Of a DNA stretch of 64,000 nt, positions 12,050 to 31,251 are shown piece by piece (the first letter of the stretch is position 1; each line of letters starts with the position of its first letter). Location: the IMG/VR virus record IMGVR_UViG_3300020477_001012, positions 64,001 to 128,000 of that record. One strand, given 5' to 3'. The stretch comes from a virus. The notes below the pieces were generated by a model. It worked only from the letters and a program-made list of their open reading frames with translations. It ran no database searches and was not told the DNA's origin. Made by a program: the position numbers and the translations under genes.

Positions 12050-13495
12050 ATGAGTCCTCAGTTATCAGATATAGGTGCGGAGCGCGCCGTTTTGGCGGGT
12101 TTATTTACCTATGGGCTAGAATCTTACGTAGAAATATCAGACCTGCTTGACCATGGAAGTTTTGGAAATCAGAACAATCAGGTTATTTACAAATGCATAG
12201 AAAAAGTCCTGCAAAATGAGGCTGAGGTTGACCTTCCCGCCATCTTGTCGGCAGCAGAACAGCTCAATCTTTCCGACGCTATAAATACCCGACAGGAGCT
12301 AGAGTATATTAACTCTTTGATGGAGTTTCCCATCAAGAAGGATAATGTAATCTATTTTGCCGCTCAAATCAAAAAGTTTGAGTTTGCCCGAAAGATTAAA
12401 AGCTTAACCTCTAAGATCTCCAGAGATGTAGAATCCATCAATGGGGATGAGTCTATAGATGACATTATTGGGATAGTAGAAAATCCCATTATGGAATTCC
12501 TCAGAGAGGATGACTCCGGGCAAAAGCCAGAAAGGCTAGGGGAAGGAGTCGAAGAGTATTTAGACTTCTTAATGGAGAATAAGTGCGACCAGATCGGCGT
12601 GCCCACTGGCTTTGCTAGATATGACGCTTCTATTGGGGGAGGATTGCGCAGAAAATGTGTTGACTTGGTTTCAGCACGACCAAAAGTTGGTAAAAGTGTT
12701 TTTGCTGATAATGTGGCCCTCAATGTGGCAAATCAGGGTGTTCCCGTCCTCATGCTCGACACCGAGATGTCTAAAGAGGACCACCTCAACCGCATCATTT
12801 CTAACCTGAGCGGTGTGCCCATTAACGAAGTGGCAACTGGTAGCTTCACCGATGACGACGAGAAAACCATTAGTGTCAAAGGGGCTATAGATCAGATCAA
12901 AGATATCCCTTATACTTATATCAGTGTGGCGGGAGCGCCTTTTGAGCAGATCATGAATGCCATTAAGAGATGGATTATGCAAGAGGTGGGTCAAGATGAG
13001 TCTGGTCGTACCAATGAATGCGTCGTCATATATGATTATCTCAAGCTGATGTCGTCTAGCTCTATAACAAACAATCTTCAAGAGTATCAGGCTCTTGGCT
13101 TTCAGATTACTTCTCTGCACAACCTGTCAGTTAAGTATGACTTCCCCTGCCTCTCTTTTGTTCAACTGAATCGAGACGGAATCACAAGAGAAACAACTGA
13201 TACAGTAAGTGGCTCTGACAGACTAATTTGGCTTTGTACATCTTTTTCTATTTTCAAGGTCAAGTCTCCAGAAGAATTAGCCGAAGATGGTCCTAATGCG
13301 GGTAACCGAAAGTTGGTCCCAGTTGTTTGCAGGCATGGCCCGGGAATGGAGGATGGCAACTATATTAACATGAGGATGCTCGGAGACCACGCCCGCTTGG
13401 ATGAGCTACGAACTAGAGATGAATTTCGCGTTGCCCCCGACTCTGATGGAGCCATTGAGGGTGCTGATTTACCATTTGATCTGGAGGATGAATGA
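12050..13495 (+). CDS. dnaB: Replicative DNA helicase
   Basis: AERAVLAG N-domain, GVPTGF, Walker A ARPKVGKS, DTEMS, YDYLKLM, VQLNR. Confidence 0.95.
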   Translation: MSPQLSDIGAERAVLAGLFTYGLESYVEISDLLDHGSFGNQNNQVIYKCIEKVLQNEAEVDLPAILSAAEQLNLSDAINTRQELEYINSLMEFPIKKDNVIYFAAQIKKFEFARKIKSLTSKISRDVESINGDESIDDIIGIVENPIMEFLREDDSGQKPERLGEGVEEYLDFLMENKCDQIGVPTGFARYDASIGGGLRRKCVDLVSARPKVGKSVFADNVALNVANQGVPVLMLDTEMSKEDHLNRIISNLSGVPINEVATGSFTDDDEKTISVKGAIDQIKDIPYTYISVAGAPFEQIMNAIKRWIMQEVGQDESGRTNECVVIYDYLKLMSSSSITNNLQEYQALGFQITSLHNLSVKYDFPCLSFVQLNRDGITRETTDTVSGSDRLIWLCTSFSIFKVKSPEELAEDGPNAGNRKLVPVVCRHGPGMEDGNYINMRMLGDHARLDELRTRDEFRVAPDSDGAIEGADLPFDLEDE

Positions 13496-22265: not shown

Positions 22266-23107
22266 CCAGAAAAGAATTAAGAATATATGAGGCTGAGGCA
22301 AGGCGTTTTGTAAACAAATACAGGGACGAGGAAACGCCAGACACATCTAAAGTACAGATTGCCGTTCTAGGACACAGCGAGAAACAGTTCAACACAATAA
22401 AGGATCGGTCATACCTTAAGAAAATATACTTAGATGATATGGATCTAGGTGAATATCATGAGTTCCAGTCAAACGCTTACGGCGAAAGCAGGGCTTTTTT
22501 ATGTGATAAACTTTTTGATGACAGTGCAGAATATGTAGGCGTCGTCACGGCGTCTTGGAATATTAAACACCAAGGGTTCAACCCTATCGACGAGTTCCAC
22601 AATTGGCATGCGAGCAAGGGACTATTGTTATCAGGAAAGGAGGACGTGGTGCTGTGTGGCAACATGTACTATGCTAGTCAATGGCTTCTCAAAAACAAGG
22701 GGTCGGTTTTTAGGCATCTATATTTTTCTAAGCGACAGAAAGAAGAGGTTGAAAAGCTATTACTCAAGACTTTGAACTTAAAGGTTAATCCCGACAGCCC
22801 GAAAGTGGCAGCGTGTAATCAAATTATATGTCGCAAGACTTTGTATGACAAATATACAAAGTTCTTTAAAGACAACGAAGTTTTGCCCATACTACGTCAC
22901 TTTTGCCGTACTAATGATATGACTACCGGCGTAGACTGGGTAGACCAAAGAACAGTGGCATATATTGCTGAGTGCGTAACTATGCTGTGGCTCAACCAGC
23001 AAGACATATTAACCATACCAACAGAAATAGCAAAAGAGAAGTGGTATTACAATTCAAATAGGTCAGCACGAGTCGATTGGTATAAAGGGAAAAACAATGA
23101 CCTCTAA
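22262..23107 (+). CDS. Putative glycosyltransferase, DUF4422/GT111-like (paralog 2)
   Basis: Clear tandem paralog of 21258-22265 (IAVLGHSEKQF..IKDR.YLKKIYLDD.DLG, ESRAFLCD.LFDD..EYVGV.TASWNIK). Confidence 0.55.
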   Translation: MTRKELRIYEAEARRFVNKYRDEETPDTSKVQIAVLGHSEKQFNTIKDRSYLKKIYLDDMDLGEYHEFQSNAYGESRAFLCDKLFDDSAEYVGVVTASWNIKHQGFNPIDEFHNWHASKGLLLSGKEDVVLCGNMYYASQWLLKNKGSVFRHLYFSKRQKEEVEKLLLKTLNLKVNPDSPKVAACNQIICRKTLYDKYTKFFKDNEVLPILRHFCRTNDMTTGVDWVDQRTVAYIAECVTMLWLNQQDILTIPTEIAKEKWYYNSNRSARVDWYKGKNNDL

Positions 23108-24200
23108 GTATGACTATCTCGTAGTGGGATGTGGTTTATTTGGGTCAGTCTTTGCGAGACAAGCCACCGACGCTGGCAAAAAATGCCTGATTGTAGACAA
23201 GCGTAACCATATCGCGGGCAATTGTTACACAGAAAACAATAACGGTATTCACGTACATAAGTACGGCCCTCATATTTTCCATACCAACAACGACCGCGTG
23301 TGGGAATTTATGAACCAGTGGGCGTCGTTCAATAATTATGTGAACAGACCAAAGGTTAACTTCGGGGGAGAGATCTACTCTTTTCCGATCAATTTATTTA
23401 CTCTGCACCAGCTATGGGGCGTCAATACGCCCGAAGAAGCAAAGCGGGCGTTGGAGGATGTGCAAATTCCGTGCTCAGACCCAAAAAATTTAGAGGAGTG
23501 GATTCTTTCTCAAGTGGGACGAGAAATATACAATACTTTTATTTATGGGTACACGAAGAAGCAATGGAACAAAGATCCTAAAGAATTGCCAGCTTCCATC
23601 ATAAAAAGATTACCTATCAGGCTCACGTATGACGATAACTACTTTAACGACAAGTACCAAGGCATACCGATTGGGGGCTATACTGCCATATTTAAGAGAA
23701 TGCTAGATGGGATACCAGTTGAACTAGGGATAGATTATTTGTCTGCCCAAGACTACTGGGATAGCAAAGCCAAGATGGTTGTATATACAGGGGCTATTGA
23801 TGAATTTTTCCGCAGCGCTTATGGCACGTTGGAGTGGAGGAGCTTGAGGTTTGAGAATGAAGAAATAGAAAACTGTGACTACCAAGGCAACGCTGTTATC
23901 AACTACACGGAAGAAAGCGTGCCATTTACAAGAATTGTAGAGCACAAGCACTTTGATTATGCAAATCAGCCAGACACAGTCATCACCAAAGAATACCCCA
24001 AAAGCTGGTCAGTGGGCCAAGAGAAGTTTTACCCCGTGAATGACACAAGGAACAACGATCTATATTTTCACTACAAAAAATTGATTGACAGATCCAAGTA
24101 TATCTTCGGTGGAAGGCTGGCCGATTACAAATATTACGACATGCATCAGGTCGTGGCCTCCTCACTTCATCATTTTTCAAAAATTAATTTGACAAATTGA
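23097..24200 (+). CDS. glf: UDP-galactopyranose mutase
   Basis: VGCGLFG, HIAGNCY, HKYGPHIFH, YTKKQW, YFNDKYQGIP, TRIVEHKHF, GRLADYKYYDM. Confidence 0.96.
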   Translation: MTSKYDYLVVGCGLFGSVFARQATDAGKKCLIVDKRNHIAGNCYTENNNGIHVHKYGPHIFHTNNDRVWEFMNQWASFNNYVNRPKVNFGGEIYSFPINLFTLHQLWGVNTPEEAKRALEDVQIPCSDPKNLEEWILSQVGREIYNTFIYGYTKKQWNKDPKELPASIIKRLPIRLTYDDNYFNDKYQGIPIGGYTAIFKRMLDGIPVELGIDYLSAQDYWDSKAKMVVYTGAIDEFFRSAYGTLEWRSLRFENEEIENCDYQGNAVINYTEESVPFTRIVEHKHFDYANQPDTVITKEYPKSWSVGQEKFYPVNDTRNNDLYFHYKKLIDRSKYIFGGRLADYKYYDMHQVVASSLHHFSKINLTN

Positions 24201-24217
24201 CTCACTCTTGCTATAAT
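24189..24217 (+). promoter_or_regulatory. Consensus sigma70 promoter driving the polymerase operon
   Basis: TTGACA (24189-24194), 17 nt spacer, TATAAT (24212-24217), extended -10 TG at 24209-24210; GAGAGG RBS before 24251. Confidence 0.85.
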
Positions 24218-24250
24218 AGAGTGAAACTTAACACATTGAGAGGTTGAAAT

Positions 24251-25879
24251 ATGAACTGGTTTCCACTGTGTAATTATACCCACTATTCCCTGCTTAAGGG
24301 ATTCTCCAAGCCTGCACAGCTTGCAAAGAAATGTGCAGATAATGCATACAGAGCATGCGGCATCGCGGACTACAAGTCCCTGTCTGGAGCGGTGACATTC
24401 TATCAGGCATGCATAAAGAACGACGTGAAGCCTATCATTGGGTGCTCGTTCGATGGATTCTCCCTGTTTGCAAAAAATAAAGAAGGCTGGCTAGACCTTA
24501 TCCAGATAGTGTCATCTTTAGATGACTCTGGTGAGGTAAACAATGCTTTACTAACACATGTCTCTAGTAAGGGCAACTTGATTAGTATTGCTGGTAGCGA
24601 AGCCAACTCCCCCATCAGAGGCGAAGACTTTTATCGCAAGTCCGAGTCATTTATGGACATTTATTATACCGACAGGGAGGACGCACCGTTACATCGCATT
24701 TTACTATGCTCTAGTATGAAGACCACTTTACCCAAAGTAAGTAAACAGTTAACCGCTGGGGAAGAGGTTAAAAATCAAGTTTTCTTTGAATCAAACGACT
24801 TCTTTTTAAAGAACAAAACGGAGATCTCCGAGGTTATTGTGCTAGACCCGCAGATTGGAAAATTTGATGAGATCTACAACAAATGCGAGAACTACAACAT
24901 ACTCAACAAGCCAATGCTTCCAAAATTTTCTACACCAAGCGGGCTTGGGGAGAATGAATACCTAACGCAGCTTTGCAGGGATGGATGGAAAGAGAAAATG
25001 ATCCCAAGCGGAAAGGTAGACGACGAGGCGGAAAAAAATAGATATGCAAACAGGATCAAAGAGGAGCTGGATGTAATTTTTGAGGCCAACTTGTCTGGGT
25101 ATTTTTTAATTGTACAAGATATTGTAGATTATGTCAATCGGCAAGGATGGCTGTCGGGTCCGGGGCGAGGCTCTGCTGCTGGGTGTCTGGTTTCTTATAT
25201 GATCGGTATTACTAAAATTGACCCGATTGAGTTTGACTTATTGTTTGAAAGGTTCTATAATAGTGGGAGAAACACGGGGGGTCACATATCCCTACCAGAT
25301 ATTGATATGGATGTACCCGGGAACAAGCGCGATGAGATTATCTCCTACCTCAAAGATACCTATGGCCACGGCAACGTGAGCCAGATGCTTACATTCGGAA
25401 GACTCCAAGGAAGAAGTGCGATAAAAGAAGTGTTGCGTGTTAACAGTGCGTGTGGATTTAGTGAAATGAACGAAATCACAAAGGCCATCCCAAACGAGGC
25501 CGACATTTCTGATCAGTTGCAGGAGATGGACGAAGAGGACCGCTCGATCATCAGGTGGGCGTTAATCAACAATCCAGAAGACCTTAGAGATTACTGCTTT
25601 GTCAATGATAGAGGAGAGCTTGACGGAGACTACGCTGACTTCTTTGACCAAGCCATTAAAATAGAGGGCACATTCAAAACCCAAGGTAAACATGCGGCGG
25701 GTGTTGTGATTTCAGTTGATGAACTCAACACAGTTTGCCCCATGGTGAACCAAAGAAGCGGTGGAGAGAAAATTGCGGGACTGGAAATGGCCGACCTAGA
25801 AGCGCTGGGTCATGTTAAATTTGATGTCTTGGGGATCAACCTCCTAGACAAGATTATGAAAATAGAGGAACTAATATGA
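24251..25879 (+). CDS. dnaE: DNA polymerase III alpha, N-terminal half (degenerate PHP plus palm/thumb)
   Basis: KPIIG, YFLIVQD, GRGSAAG, LLFERF, PDIDMD, GKHAAGVVI; ends just after KFDVLG. Confidence 0.93.
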   Translation: MNWFPLCNYTHYSLLKGFSKPAQLAKKCADNAYRACGIADYKSLSGAVTFYQACIKNDVKPIIGCSFDGFSLFAKNKEGWLDLIQIVSSLDDSGEVNNALLTHVSSKGNLISIAGSEANSPIRGEDFYRKSESFMDIYYTDREDAPLHRILLCSSMKTTLPKVSKQLTAGEEVKNQVFFESNDFFLKNKTEISEVIVLDPQIGKFDEIYNKCENYNILNKPMLPKFSTPSGLGENEYLTQLCRDGWKEKMIPSGKVDDEAEKNRYANRIKEELDVIFEANLSGYFLIVQDIVDYVNRQGWLSGPGRGSAAGCLVSYMIGITKIDPIEFDLLFERFYNSGRNTGGHISLPDIDMDVPGNKRDEIISYLKDTYGHGNVSQMLTFGRLQGRSAIKEVLRVNSACGFSEMNEITKAIPNEADISDQLQEMDEEDRSIIRWALINNPEDLRDYCFVNDRGELDGDYADFFDQAIKIEGTFKTQGKHAAGVVISVDELNTVCPMVNQRSGGEKIAGLEMADLEALGHVKFDVLGINLLDKIMKIEELI

Positions 25880-26550
25880 ACAGGGATATTATTGTTTTTG
25901 ACTTTGAAACCGGTGGCCGAAACCCATTAAGGTGCCAGCCAACTCAGATTGCTGCCATCGCCTTGGATGGGAGAAACTTCAAACTGAAGGGCGAGTTCAA
26001 CAGTGAAATGAGACCGATCCTAGACGACAAGAAAGCTGCCGAAGCCGGAGTCGACCCAGTGGAAGACGAGGCGTTAAGGATCACAAACAAGACTAGGGCA
26101 GGCTTAGCCAAGGCCCCACTCCCGAAGGGTGTTTGGAAGAAGTTTGTTAACTTTGTTAATAAGTACAACTGGAAAGGAACACCCTATTTTGCTCCCATTC
26201 CTGCCGGATTTAACATTATTGGGTACGACATGAAGATCGTAGACAGATTGTGTAAAGCATATGGCCCTTGGGACGACAAGAGGAAATGTCAAAAGTTGTT
26301 TCACCAAATCTATAAGATTGATGTTATGGATGACGTGTGGTTGTGGACTGAAGGAGACCCAGACGTGAAGTCTATTAGTATGGATTCCTTGAGAGAGAGA
26401 ATGGGGCTGTCGTCAGAAAATGCCCACGACGCCCTTCAAGATGTCAAGGACACCGCCAATATATTTATCAAGCTGCAAAAGTCCCGCAGGGCGGTGTATC
26501 GCAACATGAAATTTGAAAAGGCTTTTGCAGATGGAAAGTTGTACGTATGA
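25876..26550 (+). CDS. DEDDh 3'-5' exonuclease (DnaQ/epsilon-like)
   Basis: DFETGG, GFNIIGYD, AHDALQDV. Confidence 0.9.
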   Translation: MNRDIIVFDFETGGRNPLRCQPTQIAAIALDGRNFKLKGEFNSEMRPILDDKKAAEAGVDPVEDEALRITNKTRAGLAKAPLPKGVWKKFVNFVNKYNWKGTPYFAPIPAGFNIIGYDMKIVDRLCKAYGPWDDKRKCQKLFHQIYKIDVMDDVWLWTEGDPDVKSISMDSLRERMGLSSENAHDALQDVKDTANIFIKLQKSRRAVYRNMKFEKAFADGKLYV

Positions 26551-27029
26551 TTGAAGTAAAAATAACTAAAACCATGCTCACTAGGGCCAAGAAGAAGGCC
26601 AAGGAAATGGGTGTAATAAAGAATAGCATCCTTTCCGGCGAGGGAAATTTAGCTGGATTTCTCGGAGAAGAGGTTGCAAATCGCATTTTACGTGGTAAAA
26701 TAAACAACACATACGACTATGACATTGTGTGTGGAGACAAGAAATACGACGTGAAGACCAAGCGGTGTACTAGTCCCCCGAAGCCTTATTACGAGTGTAG
26801 CGTGGCAAAGTACAATACTAAGCAGGGATGTGATAGCTATTGCTTTGTGCGAATAGAGTACAAGAATGGGAAGTGGGGCCGAGCATGGTATCTTGGAGAA
26901 AAAGACAAAAAAGCGTTCTACAAAAAGGCGAAAGAACTAAAAAAGGGTCAGGTTGATCCAGACAACAACTTCGTTGTCAAGGCAGATTGTTTTAATTTAG
27001 CTATCAAAGATTTGAAAATAAATGATTGA
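26547..27029 (+). CDS. Basic PD-(D/E)XK-like nuclease / hypothetical protein
   Basis: GFLGEEVA...YDYDIV....YDVKTK pattern. Confidence 0.55.
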   Translation: MIEVKITKTMLTRAKKKAKEMGVIKNSILSGEGNLAGFLGEEVANRILRGKINNTYDYDIVCGDKKYDVKTKRCTSPPKPYYECSVAKYNTKQGCDSYCFVRIEYKNGKWGRAWYLGEKDKKAFYKKAKELKKGQVDPDNNFVVKADCFNLAIKDLKIND

Positions 27030-28581
27030 CTACAAAGACGATAAGACTTGGGACTTGTTCAAAAATGGTCGAACCAAAGGGGTTTTCCAACTGGAGAGCA
27101 ACCTTGGTAAGTCGTGGTCCAAAAAGGTGTCACCGGACAACCTTGAGGAACTGGCAGCATTAATTGCCCTGATTAGGCCGGGATGTTTGAAGGCCATGTC
27201 TGAAGGCAAATCTATGACCCAGCACTACGTTGATCGTAAGAGCAAAAAAGACAAGGTGACCTATCTAGATGAGTCTCTTGAGGAAATTTTAAGCCCCACA
27301 TATGGGGTTCTGGTATACCAAGAGCAATCTATGCGTATCGCCCAAAAAATCGCTGGGTTTGATCTTCAAGAAGCTGATATACTTAGAAAGGCTATTGGAA
27401 AGAAGAAGGCTGGACTTATGGCCGAGGTTCGAGAGTCATTCTTAGAGGGCGCTCAGTTCGTAGGATTGGTTAGTAATGATGTTGCCGAAGAAATTTTTAG
27501 TTGGATTGAAAAATCTTCTAGATACTCTTTTAATAAGTCCCATGCCGTGGCTTATGCTATTAACTCCTATTGGTCAGCATGGTATAAGGCTAATCATACC
27601 AAGGAATTCTTCTTGTCGTATTTCTTCCACGCCGCCGACAAGCAAGATCCCCACCAAGAGGTATACGAACTATTGTCTGAAGCTAAGCTCTTCAACTTGG
27701 AAGTTAAGATACCTAATCTGTCTAGATTTAGTGAGAAATTCAAGCTGTACGGCAGAAGTATACAATTCGGTATCAAGGATATCAAGTCTTTAACAGGCGT
27801 GACCGGAGACAAGGTTATGCAAGCAATAGCAGACACAAAAAAAGAACTCGGAAAAAAGCCAGAAGAATTTAGCTGGCTGGACATAGTAATCTATCTGTCC
27901 CCTAGAATCAATGCAACCGCCTTCAAGGCCCTTTGCTCAATTGGGTTTTTCTCTACGAAGGAGGCTAATGTTTCTAGAAATAAGGCCCTGTACGAGTATC
28001 TTATTTTTAGAGAGTTGACTAAAGCAGAGGTTAACTGGGTCACAAAGAATTATCCAGATAAACAATGGTCTAGAATGTCTGATTGCTTCCGAGACCTTGC
28101 GCCCGTAAAGAAAATGGGTGGAGGAACCAGCAAGGTAGAACGAAGTCAAATTGTTTTAAATGAGGCAGAGATGTTAGACAATCCCCCGTATGATTTGAGT
28201 GACGATCCCGCATGGATCATTGAGCAGGAGGCCAAGTTTTTAGGGTGCCCGGTGTCACTTGCTCGTATTGAGTCATCTGACACGTCTACTGCCAATACGT
28301 CTTGTAAAGATATTACAAACGGCAAGACTGGCAAGGGGATTTGTGTGGCCGCCAACGTAAACAGGGTTGCTAACTACAAGGTAAAAAAGGGCAAGACAAA
28401 GGGAAAAACAATGGCCTTTCTGACAATAGAAGACGAAACATGCTCACTGGACAGTGTTGTTGTCTTCCCAGAAGCCCGAGAAAAACATCAATACATATTG
28501 TACGAGGGCAACAATTTACTCTTCTGCGGATCTGTAGAAAAAGACAGTTCCTTTATTATAGAAAAAATTCACGAAATATAA
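27022..28581 (+). CDS. dnaE: DNA polymerase III alpha, C-terminal half (fingers, HhH, OB fold)
   Basis: TKGVFQLES, ALIRPG, TYGVLVYQEQ, ADILRKAIGKK, YSFNKSHAVAY, MAFLTIED...VVFP. Confidence 0.93.
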   Translation: MIDYKDDKTWDLFKNGRTKGVFQLESNLGKSWSKKVSPDNLEELAALIALIRPGCLKAMSEGKSMTQHYVDRKSKKDKVTYLDESLEEILSPTYGVLVYQEQSMRIAQKIAGFDLQEADILRKAIGKKKAGLMAEVRESFLEGAQFVGLVSNDVAEEIFSWIEKSSRYSFNKSHAVAYAINSYWSAWYKANHTKEFFLSYFFHAADKQDPHQEVYELLSEAKLFNLEVKIPNLSRFSEKFKLYGRSIQFGIKDIKSLTGVTGDKVMQAIADTKKELGKKPEEFSWLDIVIYLSPRINATAFKALCSIGFFSTKEANVSRNKALYEYLIFRELTKAEVNWVTKNYPDKQWSRMSDCFRDLAPVKKMGGGTSKVERSQIVLNEAEMLDNPPYDLSDDPAWIIEQEAKFLGCPVSLARIESSDTSTANTSCKDITNGKTGKGICVAANVNRVANYKVKKGKTKGKTMAFLTIEDETCSLDSVVVFPEAREKHQYILYEGNNLLFCGSVEKDSSFIIEKIHEI

Positions 28582-28637
28582 TTGTCTTTTTCCTCGGTAG
28601 CAGCTATTACATATAACGCTATAGGACAAGGAAATTA

Positions 28638-28955
28638 ATGAACATCTGTAATTTTACCGGCTTCTTGTTAGAAGACCCCGAGCTATCTATTAGTAGTAAT
28701 GTGAGCCATCTTGTTTTTAAGCTGGTCACCTATACATATAGAAGAAGCAAAAATACCGGAGAGAAGCAAAGAATGCCCACTGTCTTAACTTTTGAGGCGT
28801 GGCACACAGGGGCCGAAACTATTGCCAAGCTGGCTCAAAAGGGCACCAAAATGACCGTGTCTGCTTCTGCCAAGAATGGAAAAGGGGAAGCCGACATACT
28901 CTTCAGGGTGAATGAATTTGATTTTGGGTGCCTTAACCAAGAGCAGGAATTATGA
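28638..28955 (+). CDS. Single-stranded DNA-binding protein-like OB fold
   Basis: MN...TG.L..DPEL...FEAW...AE.IAK..QKG..MTV; short, no DDDIPF-type tail. Confidence 0.7.
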   Translation: MNICNFTGFLLEDPELSISSNVSHLVFKLVTYTYRRSKNTGEKQRMPTVLTFEAWHTGAETIAKLAQKGTKMTVSASAKNGKGEADILFRVNEFDFGCLNQEQEL

Positions 28956-30640
28956 GAAAAAAACGTATATTGTTTTGCAGTGAGGCTACGTTCTTAAATA
29001 CTGGTTACGCTACATATACCAGAGAAACACTGAACTATCTTAACAGCACAGGGAAGTATGAACTTGCTGAGATGGGTTCTTATGGAGAGCGTAACGACCC
29101 AAGGGCAGCGAATATACCTTGGAAGTACTACGGTGTGGTTCCCAATCAGTCAAGCGAACCCAAGGCATCTAAAGAAGAGATGGATGCATACGGAGCGTCG
29201 GGCAGCAATCAATTTGGAGAGTGGATATTTGAACACGTTTGCTTGGATTTCTTTCCAGATATCGTTTGCGACATCCGTGATTTCTGGATGCTAGAATTTG
29301 CTGAGCGGTCTCCATTTAGGAAATACTTTAAGTGGGCGTTGATGCCCACGGTGGACGCACGACCCCAAGCGAGGCAATGGGTGGCGACATATCAATCAGC
29401 CGATGCGTGCTTTACTTATTCCGACTGGGCTGGCGGAATATTAATGGATCAATCTGGCGGGCAAATCAACTACTTGGGCAGTTCGCCGCCGTCAGCCCAC
29501 CCTGCTTATAAGCCAGTAGAAGACAAAAGAGGCCACAAAGAACAGTTTGGGATAGACCCAGACTGCAAGATTATCGGCACGGTTATGCGCAACCAAAGAC
29601 GTAAGCTTTACCCAGATTTGTTTGAGGCGTTCAGAATATTTCTCAACAAGTCAAAAGACAAAAATTTCTATTTGTATTGTCACACGTCGTATCCAGATTT
29701 GGGCTGGGACTTACCAGAACTACTGCAAGAGCATGAGCTTTCGTCACACGTTCTGTTTACGTATATATGCCCAGAAACAAAAAAACCGTTCCCCTCGCTA
29801 TTCAAGGGGGCTATTGCCCAGTCTCCATTCACCGGAAAGTGGGGGGCAACCCTGTCCAACGTGAAGAATGGGGCATCTTATGAAGATCTTTCTGATATTC
29901 AAAACTTATTTGATCTGTATACACAATATGCGAACTGTGAGGGGTTTGGGCTTCCCTATGTTGAAGCTGCCGCATGCGGAGTTCCCGTGTGTGGAACTGA
30001 TTACTCTGCCATGGAGAGTGAAATTCGCAAGCTAGAAGGGCACCCAATAAAACCCAAGGCTTTATACAAAGAATTGGAAACGGGATGTTTGCGGGCTGTG
30101 CCGGATAATGAAGGGGCCGCATCTTACTTTTTGGATTTCTTTAATGCTAGCGATGAATATAGAGAGAAAGCTGGCAAAAGGACTAGAGAGTTGTTTGAGA
30201 AGCACTTTCAATGGCACCTGAGTGGCAAGAAATGGGAGGACTACTTTGATAGCGTGGAAGTGCCCCCGGTAGAGCAAACTTGGGCATCACCGCCAAGCAT
30301 TCACCAGCCAGAGGCAAAGCCAGAAAATATTCCACCAAATGTAAACCATAGTGAGCTTGCCAAGTGGCTGATATTGCATGTTCTTGGAGACCCCTCTCGT
30401 ATTGGTACCTTTTTTGAAGCTAGGCTTACTAGGGATCTGATGTATCAGTCTTCCACGTCTTCCACTGGGGGTATGTACTTCAATGAGTCTTCAGCCGCAT
30501 TTGATGGATTAAATGTAAGGGCAAACTTCTCTTTTGATGATGCATACAACAACCTGCACGCTCAGTGCGAAAAGAACAATGCTTGGGAAAGAAAAAGGAT
30601 CGAAACTATAAAACAAAGGATGTCTACCGAGCAATCATGA
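28952..30640 (+). CDS. GT-B (GT4-like) glycosyltransferase with C-terminal extension
   Basis: TGYA, MRNQRRK, EGFGLPYVEAAACGVP..TDYSAM. Confidence 0.9.
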   Translation: MRKKRILFCSEATFLNTGYATYTRETLNYLNSTGKYELAEMGSYGERNDPRAANIPWKYYGVVPNQSSEPKASKEEMDAYGASGSNQFGEWIFEHVCLDFFPDIVCDIRDFWMLEFAERSPFRKYFKWALMPTVDARPQARQWVATYQSADACFTYSDWAGGILMDQSGGQINYLGSSPPSAHPAYKPVEDKRGHKEQFGIDPDCKIIGTVMRNQRRKLYPDLFEAFRIFLNKSKDKNFYLYCHTSYPDLGWDLPELLQEHELSSHVLFTYICPETKKPFPSLFKGAIAQSPFTGKWGATLSNVKNGASYEDLSDIQNLFDLYTQYANCEGFGLPYVEAAACGVPVCGTDYSAMESEIRKLEGHPIKPKALYKELETGCLRAVPDNEGAASYFLDFFNASDEYREKAGKRTRELFEKHFQWHLSGKKWEDYFDSVEVPPVEQTWASPPSIHQPEAKPENIPPNVNHSELAKWLILHVLGDPSRIGTFFEARLTRDLMYQSSTSSTGGMYFNESSAAFDGLNVRANFSFDDAYNNLHAQCEKNNAWERKRIETIKQRMSTEQS

Positions 30641-31251
30641 ATGAACCAATAGATGTATGGAAATCCGAATTCCTGTTAGCCCACAGCATATTGTTTTCGG
30701 GTGTTAAAAACAGAATAGACACCGTGGAAGTTCAATCAGAAGACGGCGAGGGTACCCGAACTGTCAACACCAGAGACCACATATTTAGCCAAGTGCTCAA
30801 AGAGTTTTATCCTGAACCCATTAGAGTGTTTCAAGTAGGAGCTATAGAAACTTTCAAATCCGAGTGGAGAATAGGGTCTGGGTGGAGCGATCTGATTTTC
30901 GGGGCGTATATCAATGCTCATGGAGGTCGGCTAACACTTGTAGACATAAATCTGGACCATTTAGCAAATTCAACGCTGGCATCCCATGCGTTGCAATACC
31001 CAGTGGAGATTATGCTTGGGGATGCCATCGACGCAATTGGCCAAGGCGAATACGACATTTACTATTTAGATGGGGGTAATGACCCACAAGAAACACTAGA
31101 CCAGTTCAATAAAATTAAGGACAAGAAGTGTGTAGTTTTGGTTGATGACTTCTCTATAAAAGGAACGCTACTCAGTGAAACAGACTATGACTTTACGGTC
31201 CACGACGCCGTTAATGGTTTTGGCGTACTAGACTTAAGGAATCAGGAATGA
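30637..31251 (+). CDS. Class I SAM-dependent methyltransferase-like
   Basis: ATGA start at 30637; VFQVG, LTLVDIN, DIYYLDG, VLVDD. Confidence 0.65.
   Translation: MNEPIDVWKSEFLLAHSILFSGVKNRIDTVEVQSEDGEGTRTVNTRDHIFSQVLKEFYPEPIRVFQVGAIETFKSEWRIGSGWSDLIFGAYINAHGGRLTLVDINLDHLANSTLASHALQYPVEIMLGDAIDAIGQGEYDIYYLDGGNDPQETLDQFNKIKDKKCVVLVDDFSIKGTLLSETDYDFTVHDAVNGFGVLDLRNQE

What the first reader, a model, noticed from the sequence alone, without database searches (positions are those of the whole stretch)
24251..28581. Intein-free split DnaE with the proofreading exonuclease gene placed in the break
Seen: DnaE is cut cleanly between palm (ends KFDVLGINLLDKIMKIEELI) and fingers (starts MIDYKDDKTW...GVFQLES). 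All three catalytic Asp (PDIDMD, KFD) are in the N-half; fingers, HhH and OB are in the C-half. There are no intein ends, and the cyanobacterial split-intein site (Y/SFNKSH) is uninterrupted. The four genes overlap (25876-79, 26547-50, 27022-29). Inference: a non-covalent heterotrimeric replicase (alpha-N, epsilon, alpha-C) whose active site forms in trans, analogous to the split NrdA of phage Aeh1.
Basis: partly seen in the sequence, partly recalled or inferred. Interest (0 to 1): 0.82.

Follow-up and report, generated by a model that had tools for sequence, protein, structure and literature searches.

The report
Phage polymerase split around exonuclease gene
This uncultured 174-kb aquatic phage encodes its only DNA polymerase (bacterial Pol III alpha type) as two separate proteins cut cleanly between palm and fingers, with an exonuclease gene between them, and the same intein-free layout is kept under strong selection across a very large family of uncultured phages.

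Summary
Four overlapping + strand ORFs encode DnaE-N (PHP plus palm, all three catalytic Asp), a DEDDh exonuclease, a 160-aa protein, and DnaE-C (fingers to OB).

- **The break:** it removes only a loop of about 16 residues (E. coli alpha about 565-590). No intein, intron or Rfam hit is present.
- **Conservation:** N-Exo-C order holds in every related IMG/VR contig with enough flank (about 45), and in metagenome contigs down to 41% identity. 142 of the 150 nearest 50%-cluster representatives end at this break.
- **Selection:** dN/dS is 0.03-0.05 and catalytic residues are invariant. No other polymerase was found in the genome.
- **Best reading:** a two-piece Pol III alpha that assembles non-covalently.
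- **Not shown:** that the exonuclease is a bound third subunit.
- **The 160-aa gene:** it is not part of the replicase. It is a patchy, mobile PD-(D/E)XK nuclease. Both junctions are landing sites for free-standing endonuclease genes.
- **New here:** rare unsplit relatives carry the orthologous exonuclease gene upstream of dnaE, and they are not one clade, so the split/unsplit state changed at least twice.

I found no paper describing this layout. The scan had already noted it on other genomes (e1-5306582).

The parts
24189..24217 (+). Promoter-like site, TTGACA-17-TATAAT with an extended TG, 34 nt upstream of the N-half start
   Evidence: 12 of 12 consensus matches, the best in the region. 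No + strand terminator-like site lies between it and 28581. This is a consensus match only; function is inferred.
24251..25879 (+). DnaE-N: degenerate PHP, palm and thumb of Pol III alpha, 542 aa, with catalytic D350, D352 and D525
   Evidence: PF07733 1-260/260 at E 9e-70, and PHP over residues 10-93. Aligns to E. coli alpha 12-71 and 239-564. The Asp triad is invariant in 50 loci. Median dN/dS is 0.051.
25876..26550 (+). DEDDh (DnaQ-like) 3'-5' exonuclease, 224 aa, with a conserved but disordered C-terminal tail
   Evidence: PF00929 1-164/164 and phrog_192 'DNA polymerase exonuclease subunit'. D9, E11, D118, H184 and D189 are invariant in 48 loci. AF2 pLDDT is 82.7, with residues 214-224 below 50. 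The fold resembles DnaQ domains, RNase T, ExoI and the PolC exonuclease. Median dN/dS is 0.033.
26547..27029 (+). Mobile free-standing PD-(D/E)XK nuclease gene (ORF3, 160 aa), a candidate homing-type endonuclease and not a replicase part
   Evidence: No Pfam, PHROG or NCBIfam hit. The AF2 model has pLDDT 87.6, and the top PDB folds are NhoI, the Eco15I N-domain and DpnI (E 5e-5). D57, D68 and K70 are invariant. Its position differs or it is absent among relatives.
27022..28581 (+). DnaE-C: fingers, HhH region and OB fold of Pol III alpha, 519 aa, with no tau-binding C-terminal domain
   Evidence: PF17657 at E 6e-48 and a weak OB match. Aligns to E. coli alpha 591-853 and weakly to 981-1057. 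On NF004226 it covers 587-1050 of 1146. GVFQLES, RPG, the RKAIGKKK residues and FNKSH are invariant. Median dN/dS is 0.035.
28638..28955 (+). SSB gene directly downstream (context: the replication module)
   Evidence: PF00436 at E 6e-6. It follows the C-half in nearly all relatives, and follows the unsplit DnaE in L064.
12050..13495 (+). DnaB-type replicative helicase (context)
   Evidence: PF03796 hit at G000:C1:76596-77192, inside this ORF.

Best explanation
The phage's only DNA polymerase is a Pol III alpha (DnaE-type) enzyme made from two polypeptides that associate without covalent joining.

- DnaE-N carries a PHP domain with lost metal ligands, plus the palm with the three catalytic aspartates.
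- DnaE-C carries the fingers (dNTP and template contacts), the HhH region and the OB fold.
- The cut falls in the surface linker at the palm/fingers boundary, and almost nothing is missing.
- The genes appear to form one operon, running from a consensus promoter with overlapping stop/start codons. That would give coupled, roughly equal synthesis of the parts.
- The DEDDh exonuclease encoded between the halves is most likely the proofreader for this polymerase. Its conserved, disordered C-terminal tail is a candidate docking peptide.
- The 160-aa gene is a separate mobile nuclease that has landed in one of the two gene junctions.

Shown: the anatomy, the conservation, purifying selection, the absence of inteins or introns, and the absence of any other recognisable polymerase. 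Inferred: physical assembly of N with C, the proofreading role and binding of the exonuclease, and co-transcription.
For: - **Clean break:** it maps to profile positions 573/587 and 614/626, and to E. coli alpha 564/591. Unsplit relatives have a linker of about the same total length.
- **Conserved order:** N-Exo-C is kept in all related loci with enough flank (about 45; 60-97% identity). It is also kept in contigs at 51% and 41% N-half identity and in two further contigs (L068, L069).
- **Same breakpoint widely:** 142 of the 150 best 50%-cluster representatives end at this break.
- **Selection:** median dN/dS is 0.051 (N), 0.033 (Exo) and 0.035 (C).
- **Invariant residues:** the Asp triad, the DEDDh residues and the finger motifs do not vary.
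- **Only polymerase found:** the CheckV-complete genome has one DnaE, one RNase_T gene, and no PolA or PolB.
- **No RNA element:** no Rfam family matches 23000-30000.
- **Operon signals:** a promoter-like site lies upstream, no internal terminator is seen, and stop/start codons overlap.
- **Linked exonuclease:** its ortholog (46% identity, same tail) sits in the same replication module in unsplit relatives.
- **PHP ligands:** they are replaced in the window's protein (PLCNYTHYSLLKG, GIADYK), against PLHMHS..LLDG and LTDHG in relatives.
Against: - No direct evidence of association or activity exists.
- The exonuclease fold is generic DEDDh, so proofreading is an argument from context.
- The split relative P0243 keeps intact PHP motifs, so the split and PHP decay are not linked.
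- No fused exonuclease-polymerase protein was found that would show a physical link.
- No clamp gene and no tau-binding domain were found, so how the enzyme achieves processivity is unknown.
Confidence: 0.78

Rival explanations
1. The two halves do form the polymerase, but the exonuclease is not a bound subunit. It would be a stand-alone 3'-5' nuclease (repair, recombination or DNA degradation) whose gene simply sits in the break.
For: The fold search returns RNase T, ExoI, DinG-exo and Cas-linked DnaQ domains as readily as polymerase exonucleases. In unsplit relatives the gene is not adjacent to dnaE; a 348-aa gene lies between them. No fusion proteins were found. In some relatives up to four other genes lie between N and Exo.
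Against: The gene stays in the replication module in every lineage examined, and directly upstream of the C-half in most. It is the only DEDDh gene in the genome. The window's PHP has lost its metal ligands, so no other proofreader is evident. A conserved but disordered C-terminal tail suggests a docking motif.
Confidence: 0.3
2. The halves are joined after all, by protein trans-splicing with a cryptic intein, RNA splicing, or translational bypass.
For: Related phages do use inteins in this same gene. L013 has a full intein and L024 a split intein in the C-half. N-half inteins occur in P0254 and P0281.
Against: There are no extra residues at the break: the N tail plus the C head equal the linker of unsplit relatives. 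No intein blocks are present (C/S at +1 with a Hint domain, or HN-C/S/T). The 1.1 kb between the halves encodes proteins under strong purifying selection. The gap content varies from 0.7 to 2 kb among relatives. No Rfam intron matches. The N and C halves are in different frames.
Confidence: 0.03
3. The split gene is a decaying remnant and the phage relies on the host polymerase.
For: The window's PHP domain has lost its metal ligands. No clamp or clamp loader was found.
Against: dN/dS is 0.03-0.05 in both halves. All catalytic and finger motifs are invariant over 42-50 loci, and the ORFs stay intact down to 41% identity.
Confidence: 0.03
4. The layout is an assembly artefact or chimera of the metagenome contig.
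For: The record is a metagenome assembly, and the reads were not available.
Against: The same order and breakpoint appear in about 45 IMG/VR contigs and in ENA, JGI and Logan contigs from different samples.
Confidence: 0.01

Closest known systems
Cyanobacterial split DnaE (dnaE-n / dnaE-c with the Ssp/Npu split intein)
   Same: A C-family replicative polymerase alpha subunit encoded as two genes.
   Different: The cyanobacterial break lies at Y|CFNKSH in the fingers. It carries a split intein that ligates the halves, and the two genes are at distant loci (background given in PMC2677866). Here the break is about 190 residues earlier, at the palm/fingers boundary, with no intein. The halves are in one operon and the FNKSH site is intact.
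'Fractured genes' of environmental phages (Dassa et al. 2009, PMC2677866), including three dnaE loci
   Same: Phage-type dnaE in pieces, with a free-standing endonuclease gene between the pieces. The relative L024 shows exactly this layout: N-intein, Vsr-like nuclease gene, C-intein.
   Different: Fractured genes are defined by split inteins flanking the endonuclease. The N|C break studied here has neither intein halves nor a conserved endonuclease. The conserved insert is a DEDDh exonuclease.
Genes-in-pieces made by free-standing homing endonucleases: Aeh1 nrdA split by mobE (PMC3045599) and Aeromonas phage 25 gp43 (cited in PMC2677866)
   Same: An intein-free split of an essential replication enzyme in a phage, with the pieces presumed or shown to assemble non-covalently.
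   Different: In Aeh1 the intervening gene is the homing endonuclease, and element-derived tails mediate assembly (PMC3045599, abstract). Here endonuclease genes are only occasional lodgers, no added tails are seen, and the split is ancient and family-wide rather than confined to one or two phages.
Minimal split Pol III alpha of group 2.2 jumbo phages (Iyer et al. 2021, PMC7824862)
   Same: A phage Pol III alpha-type catalytic module divided into N- and C-terminal proteins predicted to reconstitute an enzyme.
   Different: That version is minimal: it has none of the other Pol III domains, its halves are encoded by distantly located genes, and it accompanies a family B polymerase. Here a full-size DnaE (PHP to OB) is cut once, the halves are in one operon, and no family B polymerase is present.
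E. coli Pol III core (alpha plus the epsilon proofreader)
   Same: An alpha subunit with an inactive PHP, paired with a separate DEDDh exonuclease gene product.
   Different: The phage exonuclease has no detectable specific similarity to epsilon beyond the DEDDh fold. Its binding to the polymerase is untested, and alpha itself is in two pieces.

Membership tests
C-family DNA polymerase, DnaE type (Pol III alpha) | Palm (Pol beta-like nucleotidyltransferase) with three catalytic Asp | tested here: met
   PF07733 1-260/260 at E 9e-70. PDIDMD and KFD align to E. coli PDFDVD and KFD and are invariant in 50 loci.
C-family DNA polymerase, DnaE type (Pol III alpha) | Fingers domain with the GVFQLES, RxxxGKKK and FNKSH motifs | tested here: met
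   PF17657 at E 6e-48. Aligns to E. coli alpha 591-853. The motifs are invariant.
C-family DNA polymerase, DnaE type (Pol III alpha) | N-terminal PHP domain | tested here: inconclusive
   Pfam PHP covers only residues 10-93 (profile 6-98/164). The metal-ligand motifs are replaced compared with relatives.
C-family DNA polymerase, DnaE type (Pol III alpha) | One polypeptide of about 1000-1200 aa | tested here: not met
   Two ORFs of 542 and 519 aa, separated by 1.1 kb of other coding sequence.
C-family DNA polymerase, DnaE type (Pol III alpha) | HhH / clamp-binding region, OB fold and tau-binding C-terminal domain | tested here: inconclusive
   The OB match is weak (E 0.0098, below cut-off), and HHH_6 is not called in the window although it is in relatives. 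The alignment stops at 1050 of 1146 on NF004226, so the tau-binding domain is absent.
Split-intein DnaE (cyanobacterial type) | Intein N- and C-fragments at the break | tested here: not met
   No Hint or intein Pfam hit in either half. There are no extra residues, and the tails match the unsplit linker.
Split-intein DnaE (cyanobacterial type) | Break at the Y|CFNKSH site | tested here: not met
   RYSFNKSHA is continuous at C-half 167-175. NF007079 and NF005616 meet at about C-half residue 170.
Fractured genes (split intein plus free-standing endonuclease) | A free-standing endonuclease gene flanked by split-intein halves | tested here: not met
   Not met at the window's break. It is met at a different site in the relative L024.
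Homing-endonuclease-made genes-in-pieces (Aeh1 nrdA type) | The conserved intervening gene is the homing endonuclease | tested here: not met
   The exonuclease is the conserved insert. ORF3 and the other nuclease genes are present in a minority of loci and at varying junctions.
DnaQ-like DEDDh 3'-5' exonuclease | Exo I, II and III motifs (D-x-E, D, H-x4-D) and the RNase H-like fold | tested here: met
   PF00929 1-164/164. D9, E11, D118, H184 and D189 are invariant. Foldseek E is 3e-10 to DnaQ domains, RNase T and ExoI.
Pol III epsilon-type proofreading subunit | Stable binding to the polymerase and removal of mismatched 3' ends | not testable with these tools
   Supported by context only. The co-folding job gave no verdict (see Tried and rejected).
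PD-(D/E)XK nuclease superfamily (ORF3) | Restriction-endonuclease-like fold with a D...(D/E)-x-K catalytic motif | tested here: met
   Model pLDDT is 87.6. The top matches are NhoI, Eco15I-N and DpnI. D57, D68 and K70 are invariant in 20 homologs.
Homing endonuclease (ORF3) | Site-specific cleavage of element-free alleles, followed by copying of the gene | not testable with these tools
   The only support is a patchy, position-shifting distribution and far fewer homologs (443) than for the N-half (over 7900, capped). Its strong conservation (dN/dS 0.02) is not typical of a decaying selfish gene.
Minimal split Pol III alpha of jumbo phages (Iyer 2021) | Minimal catalytic module, halves at distant loci, accompanied by a family B polymerase | tested here: not met
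   Full-size domains in a single operon, and no PF00136 hit in the genome. The family description is from PMC7824862.

The most novel reading that the evidence does not exclude
The split is not a tolerated accident but a selected architecture. The N-Exo-C gene order would program co-translational assembly of a three-part core, with the proofreader docking through its C-terminal tail at the palm/fingers seam. Pol III alpha would then be naturally modular at this seam, so lineages have switched between one-piece and two-piece forms more than once.
Probability: 0.3. Interest if true: 0.78.

Novelty: new variant of a known kind. Interest (0 to 1): 0.62.

Why it matters
Replicative polymerases are among the most constrained enzymes. 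Pol III alpha is known in pieces only where an intein re-ligates it, or as a minimal accessory module.

A full-size DnaE that works as two non-covalent chains, in a very large family of uncultured aquatic phages, would matter in three ways:
- It would show that the palm/fingers seam is a natural module boundary.
- It would give enzymologists a ready-made split system for studying fingers closure and exonuclease hand-off.
- It would offer a case of a switch between split and unsplit forms that happened at least twice in an essential gene.

The two gene junctions also act as landing sites for at least four families of free-standing endonuclease genes. Inteins and a split intein occur in the same gene in relatives. 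The locus is therefore a compact natural display of most known ways in which mobile elements interrupt a gene.

Tried and rejected
- **Co-folding:** Complex prediction with N (full), C (1-230) and the exonuclease as partner scored 0.00 in both runs. The verdict was 'no answer', so it counts neither for nor against binding.
- **Rfam:** a scan of 23000-30000 at E up to 1 found nothing.
- **Fusion proteins:** the search for longer proteins containing the exonuclease found one 430-aa protein. It looks like a chimera of an aminotransferase-like piece and a partial exonuclease on a 1.8-kb contig. It is not a polymerase fusion.
- **Exonuclease fold search:** it cannot separate epsilon-like from other DEDDh enzymes.
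- **AU test on the 52-row set:** it did not finish in two 300-s runs. A 24-row set was used instead, leaving out the long-branched P0347.
- **Deposited phages:** the best DnaE-N, DnaE-C, exonuclease and DnaB matches are only 24-36% identical, so I found no cultured member of the clade and cannot name a host. The Bacteroides phage SJC03 exonuclease homolog is followed by a terminase, not by polymerase halves.
- **Other genome searches:** terminase PF17289 and clamp PF02768 were not found.
- **Literature:** searches on split DnaE or split polymerase in phages found related but different cases only.
- **Stop-codon read-through:** rejected as a way to join the halves, because N and C are in different frames.

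Full report
**1. What is in the window**

The window is bases 64001-128000 of a 173,842-bp IMG/VR virus record that CheckV rates complete. Four + strand ORFs sit at the reported coordinates: 24251-25879 (542 aa), 25876-26550 (224 aa), 26547-27029 (160 aa) and 27022-28581 (519 aa). Their stop and start codons overlap as ATGA, ATGA and ATGATTGA.

A 12/12 match to TTGACA-17-TATAAT lies 34 nt upstream of the first ORF. No + strand terminator-like site follows before 28581. A single operon with translational coupling is therefore plausible, but it is inferred.

**2. Identity of the parts**

- **First ORF (DnaE-N):** it has a partial PHP match and a complete palm domain (PF07733, 1-260/260).
- **Fourth ORF (DnaE-C):** it has the fingers domain (PF17657) and a weak OB match.
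- **Where the break falls:**
  - On phrog_405 the N-half ends at profile position 614 and the C-half starts at 626.
  - On NCBIfam NF004226 the figures are 573 and 587.
  - Against the E. coli alpha structure, N-half residue 534 aligns to residue 564 and C-half residue 4 to residue 591.
- **Size of the gap:** only a loop of about 16 residues at the palm/fingers boundary is missing. In unsplit relatives the linker is about as long as the N tail plus the C head of the split form.
- **Catalytic residues:** the Asp triad (PDIDMD, KFD) is in the N-half. GVFQLES, RKAIGKKK and FNKSH are in the C-half. Any active site must therefore be built from both chains.
- **Missing domain:** the C-half ends with the OB region and lacks the tau-binding domain.
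- **Second ORF (exonuclease):** it is a DEDDh exonuclease, matching PF00929 and phrog_192 'DNA polymerase exonuclease subunit'.

**3. No intein or intron at the break**

Neither half has a Hint or intein match or extra residues. No Rfam family matches 23000-30000. The intervening 1.1 kb is fully coding. The cyanobacterial intein site is intact, and the NCBIfam models for the cyanobacterial halves meet at about C-half residue 170.

**4. Conservation**

- A scan of IMG/VR returned 57 related loci at 48-97% identity.
- Every locus with enough flank (about 45) has N, then the exonuclease, then C, with the same breakpoint.
- In an exhaustive profile search, 142 of the 150 best 50%-cluster representatives end at this break.
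- Contigs carrying representatives at 51% and 41% N-half identity, plus two more (L068, L069), show the same order. Sometimes one to four extra small genes, including a UDG, lie between N and the exonuclease.
- Median pairwise dN/dS is 0.051 (N), 0.033 (exonuclease) and 0.035 (C).
- The Asp triad, the DEDDh residues and the finger motifs are invariant in 50, 48 and 42 loci respectively.
- The genome has one DnaE, one RNase_T gene and a DnaB. No PolA, PolB or beta-clamp was found.

Together these results exclude an artefact or a decaying gene. They make a functional two-chain polymerase the best reading.

**5. The exonuclease**

Its AF2 model (pLDDT 82.7) is a generic DEDDh fold. The nearest structures are DnaQ domains, RNase T, ExoI, DinG-exo and the PolC exonuclease. 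The fold therefore does not prove proofreading. The arguments for a proofreader role are these:
- It is the only such gene in the genome.
- It stays in the replication module in all lineages examined.
- The window's PHP has lost its metal-ligand motifs (PLCNYTHYSLLKG, GIADYK), whereas relatives have PLHMHS..LLDG and LTDHG.
- Its last 11 residues or so are conserved in sequence (A216, F217 and G220 are invariant) but predicted disordered, as expected of a docking peptide.

Against a simple 'dead PHP needs DnaQ' story, the split relative P0243 keeps intact PHP motifs and still has the exonuclease gene.

**6. The 160-aa gene is a lodger**

- It has no family match.
- It folds confidently (pLDDT 87.6) as a PD-(D/E)XK nuclease. 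The nearest structures are the methyl-directed restriction enzymes NhoI, the Eco15I N-domain and DpnI. D57, D68 and K70 are invariant.
- Among relatives its position varies:
  - between the exonuclease and C: the window, L032, L053;
  - between N and the exonuclease: L006, L038, L044, L052;
  - several kb upstream: L009, L010, L041, L047;
  - not seen in the fetched stretch of most other loci.
- The same two junctions elsewhere hold endonuclease VII/HNH-type genes, a NaeI-like gene, HTH-HNH genes and unknown genes.

The junctions are therefore landing sites for free-standing endonuclease genes. Homing activity of this gene is untested, and its strong conservation (dN/dS 0.02) is unusual for a selfish gene.

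**7. Unsplit relatives and history**

Five of the 150 representatives have palm and fingers in one chain.
- In contig L070 the unsplit DnaE (1151 aa) sits in the same module: DnaB, primase, dNMP kinase, PD-(D/E)XK, and glycosyltransferases downstream.
- The orthologous exonuclease gene (46% identical, with the same C-terminal tail) lies two genes upstream of it.

On trees of the palm region the unsplit forms are nested among split ones:
- FastTree on 141 rows and IQ-TREE on 52 rows both need three changes of state, and well-supported branches force at least two.
- An AU test rejects a single clade for P0241, P0242, P0291 and P0359 (p 6e-5).
- Two caveats apply: the group was named after the tree had been seen, and the trees are unrooted.

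The state has therefore changed at least twice. The direction is open: re-fusion is the more parsimonious reading, repeated fission the alternative.

**8. Comparison with known systems**

- **Cyanobacterial split DnaE:** it uses a split intein at a different site and has unlinked genes.
- **Fractured genes (PMC2677866):** these need split inteins around the endonuclease. That layout is present in relative L024, but not at this break.
- **Aeh1 nrdA (PMC3045599) and phage 25 gp43:** these are intein-free splits made by a homing endonuclease. In Aeh1, element-derived tails mediate assembly.
- **Minimal split Pol III alpha of jumbo phages (PMC7824862):** it has distant genes, no other Pol III domains and a PolB partner.

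None of these matches the present layout. I found no paper describing it and no cultured member of the clade. The scan itself had noted the same layout on other genomes, and one follow-up (e1-5306582) reached the same reading. My tests agree with it. They add the unsplit relatives with an upstream exonuclease gene, the non-monophyly of unsplit forms, the mobility and fold of the 160-aa gene, and the intein variants.

**9. Verdict**

This is a new variant of a known kind. It is of real interest to polymerase and mobile-element biologists, but it remains a prediction until the proteins are tested.

Noticed in passing
L013:8331-10679: In this relative the C-half ORF (782 aa) carries a full in-frame intein with an HNH-type endonuclease region, inserted at ...ILRPG|CVSGDTLV...FIVHN|CLKSV. 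The window has the uninterrupted RPGCLKAM at that site.
   Followed up: partly
L024:8241-11130: The C-half is broken again by a split intein, three residues after the cyanobacterial site (...RYAFNK|CLDPETVV... and ...NNMVVSN|SHSVAYAK). A free-standing 297-aa Vsr-like / homing endonuclease gene lies between the pieces. This is the 'fractured gene' layout, and it makes a three-piece DnaE in this phage.
   Followed up: partly
L024:11977-13043: The glycosyltransferase gene downstream of SSB is also interrupted by about 1 kb in this relative.
   Followed up: no
L051:6525-6679 and L052:5350-5626: The tblastn match to the N-half is broken into two pieces in these relatives (at about residue 140 and about residue 350). 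The cause, whether an insertion, a frameshift or a further split, was not examined.
   Followed up: no
P0254, P0281 (metagenome proteins): Split-type N-halves of about 990-1000 aa carry inteins inside the PHP or palm region, one with a LAGLIDADG domain. They still end at the same break.
   Followed up: partly
P0346 (metagenome protein, 762 aa): An N-half that continues past the break into a circularly permuted YpsA/SLOG domain instead of fingers.
   Followed up: no
L070:5227-10456: An unsplit relative with the exonuclease gene (223 aa), then a 348-aa unknown gene, then a one-piece DnaE of 1151 aa, in the same replication and glycosyltransferase module.
   Followed up: yes
L022:7613-8137, also L025 and L026; window 30565-31251: In these relatives the N|Exo gap holds a 174-aa gene that shares a motif (IFQIGAIET...RIGSGWSD) with the window ORF at 30565-31251. 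Non-nuclease genes therefore also move into the junction. This was judged by eye only.
   Followed up: no
window 24189-24217: A perfect sigma-70 consensus (TTGACA-17-TATAAT with an extended TG) lies in front of the polymerase operon. It may say something about the unknown host's promoter type.
   Followed up: no
L059 (Bacteroides phage SJC03, 133872-136196): The nearest cultured-phage homologs of the exonuclease (27-28% identity) are in 167-179 kb Bacteroides phages. There the gene is followed by a terminase-like gene, NAD-dependent ligase and DnaB, with no DnaE halves nearby.
   Followed up: partly
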